Shown here: in pieces, positions 8,943 to 42,060 of the stretch
How the letters are laid out: each line of letters opens with the position of its first letter
How positions within the stretch are numbered: position 1 is the stretch's first letter
Assembly: GCF_009914755.1 (NCBI RefSeq)
Contig: NC_060940.1
DNA: 64,000 nt
From: the human T2T-CHM13v2.0 reference genome, Homo sapiens
Direction: 5' to 3' (one strand)
Notes under the pieces: model-generated
What the model saw: only the letters and a program-made list of their open reading frames with translations
Databases searched by the model: none
What the model was told of the DNA's origin: nothing
Position numbers and translations under genes: made by a program

Positions 8943-9038
8943 CTGGATTAGTTGTAATAATGGTTTTTGAGATTACAGTTGCTGTCATGCAGTTCCGAAA
9001 TTTGTCAAAATTTATTCTTACATCTGAGGCAAATATTA
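8943..9038 (-). CDS. MEIOB: MEIOB exon 9, (V)[31 protein letters not shown]
   Basis: Acceptor aaacag and donor GTAAAA. 96 nt. Confidence 0.96.
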
Positions 9039-9122
9039 CTGTTTGGGAAAAAAGCCATTTAAAATTATTACATGGGAGGATATAAATGACAAATATTGGA
9101 CACAATCATTGAATGATAATAC

Positions 9123-9175
9123 CTGTTTCTCGTGGCATCCAGCTCTGTGCAAGTAGAATGGATTCATTATCCCAA
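9123..9175 (-). CDS. MEIOB: MEIOB exon 8, WDNESILLAQSWMPRET
   Basis: Acceptor tgcag and donor GTATTA. 53 nt, followed by an 84-nt intron. Confidence 0.96.
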
Positions 9176-10003
9176 CTGCATTTGTTTAAAAAGAAGTAAT
9201 ACAAATTGAATACACTAGAAAAAACTGATAGTGACATATTATTTACAACAATAAAAGAAAGCTTCAGTGGCTGGGGTCAGCCATCCCCAAGGTGGTCAAA
9301 GACCTCCTAGTCTTAAGCATGCCAGCTTCCTCCTAGGGAGAATTTAACAACTCCATGAGAGAACATTCCTTCAACACACACTCTCCTCTAGTAATACTCT
9401 GCTCTGCCAATTCTTAATTTATTTTTCCAACACTTAATCACTCCAGGCTAGTTAGAACTAAAGCCTGAAGACTTTAAACTCACACTTTCAGACCATGAAG
9501 GTGAGTGTCCCCCAGTGGATAAACTGCTCAGGGGCCTTGATGGGTTGAAGACACTTTTGAAATCAGTTCCTTTGGTACCCAGGCATCAGAGGTCTAGACA
9601 ATGCCTTGTTGTACCTGGCAGTGCTTCAGGGTGCAGTCCCCACCCTGGCCCACGTGCCCCTGTGTCCTGCCCTGCTCCAGGATACTTCCCAGGAAGCACA
9701 GAGGGAAACTCTGGCTTGTTCCATGGGACCTAATAAAACATCATTTGTTACACGACAGAATTCAATAATAAAACTGGGCACGGTGGAGTCCCCCTAAGCA
9801 ATTCCATGCCATCTAAAGACCTCATTTTAAGGTGGTGTCCGTAACAACTCAACATTCAAGAGTGAGATTTATTTTTTAAAATATCATTCATCTCCTATCA
9901 TTATCCTCTCTTGATATGAAGTCCATCATATTTTTGATAAAATGAAAATGTCCTGGTGATAACTACAGGGATTTCACAGTTTGGAACAGACATCGGTGTT
10001 TAC

Positions 10004-10104
10004 CATGTCATCGCAAAAGACGACTCTGTTTCATCATAGAGTCTAACTTCACACCTCTGGCCTTTTCTCCGGTCTGAAGTTGTAAAGTATTTTGGCTCTC
10101 CAAC
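10004..10104 (-). CDS. MEIOB: MEIOB exon 7, [33 protein letters not shown](C)
   Basis: Acceptor tctaag and donor GTAAAC. 101 nt. Confidence 0.96.
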
Positions 10105-17888: not shown

Positions 17889-18020
17889 CACAGTCACCAA
17901 CCCTAAAGCTGTCAGAAAGAGACGTGATGTAATCTTCATTGCCCCAGGAAGCTGCATTTACAAAATGTGCTGGTGAATCCCGAATGGTGAAGCTGAAAGT
18001 GTACCTTTCTGATCCAATAT
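17889..18020 (-). CDS. MEIOB: MEIOB exon 4, (N)[45 protein letters not shown]-fold
   Basis: Acceptor cccttag and donor GTAAGT. 132 nt. Lies within ORF 17851..18051. Confidence 0.97.
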
Positions 18021-19046
18021 CTAAGGGAAAACCAATGCTTTCATTTTTCAAATGAAGAGTTTCAATCGCTTCTCTGCCTTTTGATAAGTGTTACATGAAA
18101 AGTTTCACTTCAATTATAAACAAATGATTATTTGTTTAATCAAATAACTATTGATTATGATAATAAAAATACTCAAATACATAGTACAAAATGTTCTTTC
18201 AGATGTATATTCTATAACATGCTTCTATGAATTTCAAACTGAAGTGGTAACAGGTTGCCCCCTTGCTCCCTTCCCTGGTGATCTGTGTATTTGGAGGGAA
18301 AAACATGTAAACTTGAGCCATCCAGGTATTACCTTAGGTTCTCCTTTTCTCTCTTACTGTTGTTTCAACCTAAGTCATAATTCAGATCTAAATAGTTATT
18401 TCAGTCCCAGCTACTTAGGAGGATGAAGCAGAATGACTGCTTAAGCCCAAAAGTTCAAGGCTTCAGCGAACTGTGATTGCCCCACTGCTCTCCAGCCTGG
18501 GCAACAGAGCAAGACCCCATCCCAAAAATAAAAGTAAAAATAGGCCGGGCGCAATGGCTCACGCCTGTAATCCTAACACTTTGGGAGGCCGAGGCGGATG
18601 GATCACCTGAGGTTAGTTCAAGACCAGCCTGGCCAACATGGTGAAACCCTGTCTCTGCTAAAAATACAAAACTTAGCCAGGCGTGGTGGTGGCCGCCTGT
18701 AATCCCAGCTACTTGGGAGGCTGAGGCAGGAGAATCGCTTGAACCCAGGAGGCGGAGGTTGCAGTGAGCCAAGATCCAGCCTGGGTGACAAGAGAAAAAC
18801 TCTTGTCTCAAAAATAAATAAATAAATAATAATAAAATAAAAATAAAAATTGGCCAGGCACAACAGCTTACCCCTGTGATCCCAGGACTTTGGGAGGCGA
18901 GGTAGGAGAATCACTTGAGGCCTGGAGTTCAAAACCAGCCTGGGCAACATAGAAGGACACCATCTCTACATAAAATTTTAAAATTAGTGGTGGCACTCAT
19001 CTTTAGTCTCAGCTACTTGGGAGGCTGAGGAGGAAAGGTTGCTTGA

Positions 19047-19526
<480 letters not shown>

Positions 19527-20375
19527 TGATCTGCCTGCCTCAGCCTCCCAAAGTGCTGGCATGAGCCACCGTGCCTGATGAGACAAGGTTTTTTAGTAGA
19601 GGTGGGGAAGAACAGAGTGAGACCCTGTCTCAAAAAAAAAATAATAAATTTTAAAAAAATTAAAATAAGTTATTTCAAAACAAATTATGTGCTACTTAAT
19701 GAGGACCACTAGGGGTCAGCAAATACTTTTTTTCCAAAATAGAAATTTCATATTGGTTTTGCTAATTAAAAATTACAACCTGGCTGGGCGCAGTTGCTCC
19801 TGCCTATAATCCCGGCACCTTGGGAGGCCAAGGGGGTAAGATTGCTTCAGCCAAGGAGTTCGAGACTGGGCAACAAAGTGAGACCCTCTGTCTCTACAAA
19901 AACTCCAAAAATTATTCAGGCATAGTAGCATGGACCTGTCTGGGCTACATGCGAGGCTGAGGCAGGAAGACCACTTGAGCCCAGGGTTGAGGCTGCAGTG
20001 AGCTGTATTCACATTGCTGCACTCCAGGCTGAGTGACAGAGCAAGACCCTATCTCAAATTTTTAAAAAAAGTAATATAACTCAACATACATGTAAATTAT
20101 AGACATATTCTGAACTGTCTATTAGTGTCTACCTCTGAGGAGAGGACTAGGATGGCAAGAGTGAGGAGCTGAAAGGGGAATTTCACTTTTCAAATCTGTG
20201 ACCTTTGGTACTGCTGGAATTTTTGATACAAATATAATGTTATATGTACAATGTTTTAAGTCAGTAAGCATACTTCTTCCAAAAAAGGAATACCACAGAT
20301 GTCATCATAAAAAGAAGTCAAACAACACAGAAGTTTTTCTCCTTCCCTCACAGTCTGATAGGTGAAAAACTGTGA

Positions 20376-20597
<222 letters not shown>

Positions 20598-20966
20598 TAG
20601 GCTGGTCCCAAACTCCTGACCTCAGGTGATCCGCCCACCTCAGCCTCCCAAACTGCTGGGATTATAGGCGTGACCACTGTGCCTGGTGAAAAACCGTGTA
20701 TTTCATTTTTATAATTTTAGCAAGTATTTTAATAACTACTTTTTTCTAATTCACACATTTTAAGTGATGCCTTCTGAAATTTGGTAAAAAGAGATATAGA
20801 CTTCCTCAAACTATTTATTTAGTATTTCTGATCTAATTAGTTAAGATGAAATAAAGTGCAGGCACAAATGATATGGGTACCAGATGACAGCTTGGTTATT
20901 TACCTTAAAGATAAAAGCATCATGCCTGTAATCTCATCACTCTAGGAGGATGAGGCGGGATGATCA

Positions 20967-21552
<586 letters not shown>

Positions 21553-21659
21553 TTAAGGAGTTAAACAGGCATAGAAAAATTAATCACTTCAATATACTTT
21601 GTTGTAGTCATAAGCCAAAGTTGATGAAAAATGAAACCAAGAGTTAAACAGAACTCAGC

Positions 21660-21717
21660 TTTTTCTGTCTGGAAAGCCTTTGACATCTGTTTTCCCAATA
21701 ACTATACCGATAACTTT
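21660..21717 (-). CDS. MEIOB: MEIOB exon 3, KVIGIVIGKTDVKGFPDRK(N)
   Basis: Acceptor ttttcag. 58 nt (c.70-127). The phase-1 end fits exon 4. The donor is non-canonical GCTGAG (see findings). Confidence 0.95.

Positions 21718-36109: not shown

Positions 36110-42060
<5,951 letters not shown>

What the first reader, a model, noticed from the sequence alone, without database searches (positions are those of the whole stretch)
21651..21665. MEIOB exon-3 donor is A|GCTGAGT: a canonical GTGAGT donor with one extra C, a possible splice-null allele
Seen: exon 3 must end at 21660 so that A|AT makes Asn43 with exon 4. The intron then begins GCTGAGTTC on the minus strand, and removing one C (the + strand g at 21658) gives a perfect GTGAGT. 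All other MEIOB donors here are GT. Established: functional GC-AG donors nearly always have AG|GCAAGT-like context, which AAA|GCTGAG lacks. Inference: the next GT (+6) gives AAA AGC TGA, an immediate stop, and skipping the 58-nt exon frameshifts. Biallelic MEIOB loss causes meiotic arrest (azoospermia, premature ovarian insufficiency). The site is therefore a loss-of-function allele, an assembly error or an unusual non-canonical intron.
Basis: partly seen in the sequence, partly recalled or inferred. Interest (0 to 1): 0.8.

Follow-up and report, generated by a model that had tools for sequence, protein, structure and literature searches.

The report
MEIOB intron 3 GC-AG donor
The third MEIOB intron really starts with GC instead of GT, and it most likely is a working but unusual splice site that the U1 RNA reads one base out of step, not a broken copy of this fertility gene.

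Summary
On the minus strand, exon 3 (21717..21660) ends ...GACAGAAAAA and the intron starts GCTGAGTTC. It is the only non-GT donor among 10 MEIOB donors in the window, and the only non-GT-AG intron among 12 complete annotated introns. It is also the only junction between -55 and +60 that keeps the full reading frame.

In the normal register the site pairs poorly with U1. Shifted by one base (G+1 on C9) it makes 7 pairs, 5 of them contiguous, and this is the predicted minimum-energy duplex at -4.0 kcal/mol. Shifted and bulged U1 registers are a published class. One published human GC donor, in RAB34, has the same intronic heptamer GCTGAGT.

The extra C does not duplicate a neighbouring base and the region is unique, so slippage or assembly error is unlikely.

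My best reading (0.7) is a functional GC-AG donor read by U1 out of register. I could not compare other human haplotypes, other species or RNA-seq, so a rare hypomorphic or null allele in this assembly remains possible (about 0.15). Interest is low to moderate.

The parts
21660..21717 (-). MEIOB exon 3 (58 nt, coding, ends in phase 1). It is purine-rich: 64 % purine, the highest of the 10 exons in the window.
   Evidence: Hub RefSeq table; boundaries and frame checked; composition
21658..21659 (-). Intron 3 positions +1 G (21659) and +2 C (21658): the GC donor dinucleotide
21653..21657 (-). Intron positions +3..+7 (TGAGT), predicted to pair with U1 A7, psi6, psi5, C4 and A3 when the register is shifted by one base
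   Evidence: minimum-energy duplex -4.0 kcal/mol, shifted register
21651..21663 (-). The whole donor motif, AAAA|GCTGAGTTC
21620..21653 (-). T-rich stretch at intron +7..+40 (53 % T, the highest of the 10 MEIOB donors in the window; window minus strand 27.4 % T). A possible intronic enhancer region; this is inference only.
18021..21659 (-). MEIOB intron 3, 3639 nt, GC-AG, with no U12-type donor or branch-site motif
18021..18040 (-). Acceptor of intron 3 (...ggttttcccttag)
17889..18020 (-). MEIOB exon 4. It starts AT, which completes the Asn codon A|AT.

Best explanation
MEIOB intron 3 is a genuine U2-type GC-AG intron, and its donor A|GCTGAGTTC is functional. In the usual register it pairs poorly with U1 snRNA. 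It is most likely recognised by U1 with the helix shifted by one base: A-1 on U10 and G+1 on C9, C+2 mismatched against C8, and +3..+7 UGAGU on A7-A3. Less likely, C+2 is bulged out. Because +2 is unpaired in that register, U1 cannot tell GC from GT here. Later spliceosome steps, which tolerate GC, cut at A|G. A purine-rich short exon, a strong upstream acceptor and a T-rich stretch just downstream probably help. What is shown: the sequence, the frame requirement and the in-silico duplex. What is inferred: that U1 actually uses this register, that the auxiliary elements act, and that the GC is the normal human state.
For: (1) The GC junction is the one in the RefSeq-selected transcript (hub table). 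Of the 8 junctions scored from -55 to +60 (all 7 GT sites plus the annotated GC; other GC dinucleotides were not scored), it is the only one that keeps the full frame. The only other open option leaves a 10-nt exon. (2) In the canonical register there are 4 scattered pairs with positive energy. In the +1 shifted register there are 7 pairs, 5 contiguous, and this is the RNAduplex optimum at -4.0 kcal/mol. The bulged-C+2 register gives -1.9. This is the weakest of the 10 MEIOB donors, but it is near exon 7's -5.3. (3) An in-silico +2 C-to-U change leaves the predicted duplex unchanged at -4.0. (4) Shifted and bulged (+2/+3) U1 registers are published and experimentally supported classes (Tan et al. 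2016, PMC4856993; introduction and passages read). That paper's supplementary list has a RefGene GC donor in RAB34, AAG|GCTGAGTAC, with the same heptamer. It is the single 'bulge 1 (+2)' case among 201,541 human donors. The list also has 54-68 GTTAAGT/GTTGAGT donors. (5) The C is flanked by G and T, so it is not a duplication of a neighbour or a homopolymer change. The exon-3 region occurs once in the 3.1-Gb assembly. (6) Context: exon 3 has the highest purine content, its donor has the most T-rich +7..+40 stretch, and its acceptor has the second most pyrimidine-rich tract of the 10 exons. The abstract of Kralovicova et al. 2011 says weak GC donors depend on GAA/CAA enhancers and strong neighbouring sites. 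(7) Prior, from my own rough estimate: about 0.9 % of human donors are GC (Tan 2016 passage), whereas a private non-slippage 1-base insertion exactly between +1 and +2 of a donor is expected far less than once per haploid genome.
Against: I could not examine any other human haplotype, any orthologue or any RNA-seq junction data, so fixation and usage of the GC in this haplotype are not shown. The predicted U1 duplex is the weakest of the 10 MEIOB donors. The energies ignore pseudouridines and U1 proteins, and the U1 5'-end motif was typed from recall. MEIOB, C16orf73 and gene id 254528 are absent from the Tan 2016 list. That list holds bulge and asymmetric-loop registers only, so their absence is uninformative, but it gives no support either. 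The exon ends AAA, without the -1 G that anchors the RAB34 site. Positions +4..+6 (GAG) also miss the usual AGU that faces the U6 ACAGA box (recalled), so it is unexplained how the cut is fixed at A|G. The context statistics rest on only 10 exons. GAA+CAA density in exon 3 (5.2 per 100 nt) ranks only 4th of 10. The assembly derives from a hydatidiform mole (recalled), which needs no meiosis, so a null allele would not be selected against in it.
Confidence: 0.7

Rival explanations
1. The GC is a rare or private allele of this assembly's haplotype. It arose either by a 1-base C insertion into GTGAGT or by a +2 T-to-C change in GTTGAGT, and it abolishes or strongly reduces exon 3-exon 4 splicing. 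That would make it a null or hypomorphic MEIOB allele.
For: Canonical-register complementarity is very poor. Removing the C in silico gives a normal donor with a better duplex, -5.7 against -4.0. Failure would give an immediate stop or a frameshift. The abstract start of PMC13129441 in the listing says only about 15-18 % of GT>GC changes keep some wild-type splicing. The source cell line does not need meiosis (recalled).
Against: A C between G and T is not a slippage product. Such an insertion exactly at +1/+2 is much rarer than the roughly 0.9 % of donors that are constitutively GC. A published reference-genome donor, in RAB34, has the same heptamer. In the shifted register a +2 T-to-C change costs U1 nothing. 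No paper in the held library links MEIOB with such a variant.
Confidence: 0.15
2. The donor is functional and normal, but U1 does not use the shifted helix. Recognition would rest mainly on exonic and intronic enhancers, on exon definition from the strong upstream acceptor, or on a bulged-C+2 helix. The out-of-register match would then be a relic of an ancestral GT site.
For: The predicted duplex is weak, at -4.0 kcal/mol. Passages of Erkelenz et al. 2018 stress that noncanonical donors depend more on enhancers and that the U1 binding place need not be the cleavage place. Exon 3 is purine-rich and followed by a T-rich stretch.
Against: Five contiguous pairs placed exactly one base out of register have an arithmetic chance of about 2 in 1024. 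The shifted helix is the computed optimum and is 2.1 kcal/mol better than the bulged one.
Confidence: 0.12
3. Assembly or consensus error: the real sequence lacks the C.
For: Only that deleting one base gives a perfect consensus.
Against: The C is not in a homopolymer. The region is unique in the assembly and lies outside the masked repeats listed by the hub (nearest 20916-21507). This assembly's reported base accuracy is very high (recalled).
Confidence: 0.01
4. U12-type (minor spliceosome) intron.
For: The donor is non-canonical.
Against: There is no TATCCT donor box and no TCCTTRAY branch site in the last 40 nt. The motif definitions are recalled.
Confidence: 0.01

Closest known systems
Shifted-register 5' splice sites (Roca & Krainer 2009; not held here, known to me only through citing papers, and recall)
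   Same: Poor canonical U1 complementarity. Good pairing when every pair moves by one base so that G+1 faces C9. The cut stays at the true +1 (description in Tan 2016 introduction).
   Different: As I recall them, the described members are GT sites (GTTAAGT-like). This one has C at +2, the mismatched position. Usage of the register is not tested for MEIOB.
RAB34 GC donor AAG|GCTGAGTAC, 'bulge 1 (+2)' in the supplementary list of Tan et al. 2016
   Same: GC donor with the identical intronic heptamer GCTGAGT. Non-canonical U1 register predicted to be far better than the canonical one.
   Different: RAB34 has AAG before the junction and A at +8, giving a stronger helix (-7.3 in that list) with C+2 bulged. 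MEIOB has AAA and T at +8, and its best predicted form is the shifted helix with a C-C mismatch at -4.0; the bulged form gives -1.9. The passages I read mention no experiment on the RAB34 site itself.
Bulge +2/+3 GT donors (GTTGAGT / GTTAAGT; 68 predicted and 54 retained of 201,541 human donors; Tan 2016 Table 3 and list)
   Same: The same TGAGT block one base downstream of its usual place. The MEIOB site differs from GTTGAGT only at +2.
   Different: Those sites keep the GT dinucleotide, and all the listed examples I saw have G at -1.
Ordinary human GC-AG introns (about 0.9 % of donors; about 1 %, abstract)
   Same: GC...AG, U2-type, with a normal acceptor and pyrimidine tract.
   Different: This one has almost no canonical-register complementarity.

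Membership tests
U2-type GC-AG intron | GC at intron +1/+2 and AG at the 3' end | tested here: met
U2-type GC-AG intron | The junction is the one used in the mature mRNA | tested here: inconclusive
   The hub's RefSeq table places the exon end at 21660, and it is the only full-length open junction nearby. No transcript reads were available to me.
U2-type GC-AG intron | Near-consensus canonical context (AG|GCAAGT-like), typical but not obligatory | tested here: not met
   Canonical register: 4 scattered pairs, positive energy
U2-type GC-AG intron | Pyrimidine tract and AG acceptor | tested here: met
   ggttttcccttag|
Shifted-register 5' splice site | Pairing to U1 is better with G+1 on C9 than in the canonical register | tested here: met
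   7 pairs against 4; -4.0 against +3.6 or more kcal/mol; it is the RNAduplex optimum. In silico only.
Shifted-register 5' splice site | Register proven by mutation and suppressor U1 snRNA | not testable with these tools
   Needs a minigene experiment
Shifted-register 5' splice site | GT at +1/+2 in the described members (recalled) | tested here: not met
   GC. I therefore file it as working like this class, not as a described member.
Bulge +2 GC donor (RAB34 type) | GC followed by TGAGT, with C+2 bulged and G+1 on C8 anchored by exon pairs | tested here: inconclusive
   The heptamer is identical, but the exon ends AAA and the bulged form is predicted 2.1 kcal/mol worse than the shifted form
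U12-type intron | Donor box RTATCCTT and branch site TCCTTRAY near the 3' end (recalled motifs) | tested here: not met
Splice-null allele by 1-base insertion | Differs from the common human sequence at this site | not testable with these tools
   No other human assembly, variant database or orthologue is held. The exon-only 28-mer found 0 matches in genome contigs and 0 in viral contigs, and the assembly has no relatives here.
Splice-null allele by 1-base insertion | Insertion context typical of slippage (copy of a neighbouring base or a homopolymer) | tested here: not met
   The C lies between G and T

The most novel reading that the evidence does not exclude
MEIOB intron 3 is a fixed, efficiently spliced GC-AG intron in which the whole donor consensus sits one base out of register. 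This applies both to the block that pairs with U1 (+3..+7) and to the AGU that normally faces the U6 ACAGA box (here at +5..+7). It would be a natural case where the cleavage position and the +2 base are read independently of both snRNA helices, and the first GC member of the shifted-register class, in a gene needed for fertility.
Probability: 0.3. Interest if true: 0.5.

Novelty: new member of a known kind. Interest (0 to 1): 0.3.

Why it matters
Standard scoring tools assume the canonical register and would call this donor dead. If it is the normal human state, variant interpretation in MEIOB (azoospermia, ovarian insufficiency) must treat c.127+2C as the reference. It must also treat +3..+7 as the sensitive bases, one position further downstream than usual. 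The site would add a second human GC donor of the GCTGAGT type to the single one in the published list, and would be a handy natural substrate for testing how U1 register, the +2 base and cleavage position are uncoupled. If it is instead a rare allele, the T2T reference would carry a defective copy of a fertility gene, which matters for anyone calling variants against it.

Tried and rejected
(1) Independent copies of the locus. An unchanged 28-base exon-only stretch found 0 matches in genome contigs and 0 in viral contigs. The hope was contaminating human or mammalian contigs that would show the donor in other individuals.

(2) Retrocopies or duplicates in the same assembly. The exon 3 region and exon 4 each match once, so there is no processed pseudogene to fossilise the junction.

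(3) Literature.
- MEIOB + GC-AG gave 1 paper, on meiobenthos.
- MEIOB + c.127 gave 4 papers. In the 2 whose passages I read, the c.127 variants belong to other genes; the other 2 I saw only in the listing.
- MEIOB or C16orf73 with noncanonical-splice terms gave 131 papers holding at least 2 of the 5 terms. Of the 30 listed, only one holds MEIOB (with C16orf73, a melanoma TWAS), and none pairs it with a splice term.
- MEIOB + CHM13 gave 0.
- Supplement searches for MEIOB/C16orf73 gave 0 hits in Tan 2016 (file 1 not searched), Erkelenz 2018 (file 1 not searched), Abou Alezz 2020 (one small file) and Kralovicova 2011 (0 characters held).

(4) Roca & Krainer 2009, Roca et al. 2012 and Wong et al. 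2018 are not held. The original list of shifted-register sites and the measured activity of the 9-mer AAAGCTGAG could therefore not be checked.

(5) Paper reading closed, before the supplement of Churbanov et al. 2008 could be searched. The search of earlier findings was not open.

(6) The U12-type reading was rejected.

(7) I did not look up the RAB34 donor in this assembly, because that would have needed typing a sequence taken from a paper.

Full report
**What is there**

Read on the minus strand, MEIOB exon 3 runs from 21717 to 21660. It is preceded by ...ttttgtttttcag and followed by gctgagttctgtttaac. Position 21659 is G (+1) and 21658 is C (+2).

Joining the coding parts of the hub's RefSeq table in a script gives an open frame of 293 residues within the window. 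Exon 3 ends at c.127 in phase 1, and the junction codon A|AT is completed by exon 4, which starts ATATTG after ...cccttag.

Of the 10 MEIOB donors in the window, 9 are GT and only this one is GC. Of the 12 annotated introns that lie wholly in the window, 11 are GT-AG and MEIOB intron 3 (3639 nt) is GC-AG.

**Consequences if the site failed**

I scored 8 junctions from -55 to +60: all 7 GT sites plus the annotated GC.
- The only other junction that stays open cuts the exon to 10 nt.
- Read-through or use of the GT at +6 gives AAA AGC TGA.
- Skipping the 58-nt exon shifts the frame into stops.

**How the donor looks to U1**

I used the 11-base 5' end of U1, typed from recall with pseudouridines written as U.
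- The canonical register gives 4 scattered pairs and a positive energy.
- The register shifted by one base (A-1 on U10, G+1 on C9, C+2 opposite C8, then +3..+7 UGAGU on A7..A3) gives 7 pairs, 5 of them contiguous. It is the RNAduplex optimum at -4.0 kcal/mol.
- A helix with C+2 bulged out and G+1 on C8 is worth -1.9 kcal/mol.
- The duplex is the weakest of the 10 MEIOB donors (range -4.0 to -10.3), but it is close to exon 7's -5.3.
- Changing +2 C to U in silico leaves the optimum unchanged at -4.0. Removing the C gives -5.7.

In the shifted register, therefore, U1 cannot see whether +2 is C or U.

The heptamer GCTGAGT is not rare in itself: there are 8 in the window against about 10 expected. 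What is unlikely by chance is a U1-complementary pentamer exactly one base out of register at a boundary fixed independently by the frame. The arithmetic chance is about 2 in 1024.

**What is known about such sites**

From Tan et al. 2016 (PMC4856993) I read the abstract, the introduction and part of the methods, passages including Table 3, and part 1 of 55 of supplementary file 3. The paper describes:
- registers with a bulge at +2 or +3;
- a curated list drawn from 201,541 human donors.

In that list one donor is 'bulge 1 (+2)': a RefGene GC site in RAB34, AAG|GCTGAGTAC. It has the same intronic heptamer as MEIOB and energies of -7.3 against -2.4 for the canonical register. The list retains 54 GT donors (68 before curation) as 'bulge +2/+3' of the GTTAAGT/GTTGAGT type.

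MEIOB, C16orf73 and gene id 254528 are not in the supplementary files that could be searched (file 1 was not searched). That list holds bulge and asymmetric-loop registers only, while the MEIOB optimum is a shifted helix with a 1x1 mismatch. The absence therefore says nothing either way.

The same paper gives GC-AG donors as 0.9 % of the total. It also notes that U1 only marks the site and that cleavage is set later by U6.

Passages of Erkelenz et al. 2018 (PMC6280755) add that noncanonical donors depend more on enhancers and that the U1 binding place need not be the cleavage place. The abstract of Kralovicova et al. 2011 (PMC3167603) says weak GC donors are helped by GAA/CAA enhancers and by strong adjacent sites.

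The original papers on the shifted and bulged registers, and the all-donor activity screen of Wong et al. 2018, are not held.

**Context of the exon**

Exon 3 compares with the other exons in the window as follows:
- It has the highest purine content of the 10 exons (64 %).
- Its intron +7..+40 is the most T-rich (53 %, against 27.4 % for the window's minus strand).
- Its upstream acceptor tract is the second most pyrimidine-rich (78 %).
- Its GAA+CAA density (5.2 per 100 nt) is only 4th of 10.

This fits a weak donor that leans on auxiliary signals, but ten exons are too few for a test.

There is no U12-type donor box or branch site.

**Normal state, rare allele or error?**

This could not be decided directly. 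The assembly has no relatives in the held genomes. An exon-only 28-mer found nothing in the bacterial/archaeal or the viral contig collections. The exon 3 region and exon 4 each occur once in the 3.1-Gb assembly, so there is no retrocopy. No paper in the held library connects MEIOB with a GC donor, a c.127 variant or CHM13.

The indirect arguments favour a normal donor:
- The C lies between G and T, so it is not a slippage or homopolymer product. This holds for a biological insertion and for a consensus error alike.
- The region is unique and lies outside the masked repeats.
- The site is one transition away from GTTGAGT, a published class of working donors, and that transition is invisible to U1 in the shifted register.
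- A reference-genome donor with the same heptamer exists in RAB34.
- Constitutive GC donors (about 0.9 % of donors) greatly outnumber the expected private insertions at exactly this position. This last point is my own rough estimate, not a computed result.

The arguments against are these:
- The duplex is weak.
- The exon lacks the -1 G.
- +4..+6 (GAG) misses the usual AGU facing U6 (recalled), so it is unexplained how the cut is fixed at A|G.
- Only about 15-18 % of GT>GC changes keep some normal splicing (abstract start of PMC13129441 in the listing).
- The source cell line needs no meiosis (recalled).

**Verdict**

The most likely reading (0.7) is a functional GC-AG donor recognised by U1 one base out of register. 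That makes it a new member of a known kind, closest to the shifted-register sites and to the RAB34 GC donor.
- A rare hypomorphic or null allele of this haplotype keeps about 0.15.
- A functional donor that does not use the shifted helix keeps about 0.12.
- Assembly error and a U12-type intron keep about 0.01 each.

A look at GRCh38, HPRC, gnomAD, ape orthologues and testis junction reads would settle the first question within minutes. A minigene with suppressor U1 snRNAs would settle the register question.

**Limits**

Paper reading closed and the search of earlier findings was never open. Several supplementary files could not be searched. They may hold gene-level lists of GC-AG or shifted-register introns that bear on this claim.

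Noticed in passing
window 9039-9122 (-): MEIOB intron 8, between exons 9123-9175 and 8943-9038, is only 84 nt long, close to the lower size range of human introns. Its donor is CAG|GTATTA and it ends in AG.
   Followed up: no
window 10001-10003 and 10004-10104 (-): The donor of MEIOB exon 7 (ATG|GTAAAC) has the second weakest predicted U1 duplex of the gene's donors in the window, at -5.3 kcal/mol. The exon 3 donor is therefore not far outside the gene's own range.
   Followed up: partly
window 21707-21710 (-), inside exon 3: A GT at exon position 11 (TCG|GTATAG) has a better predicted U1 duplex (-5.5) than the annotated GC donor and would stay in frame, but it would leave a 10-nt exon. It is a conceivable cryptic donor if the GC site were weakened.
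   Followed up: partly
window 41009-41018 (-): The acceptor of LINC00254 intron 1 (gacaacccag|TAA) has a poor pyrimidine tract compared with the other acceptors in the window.
   Followed up: no
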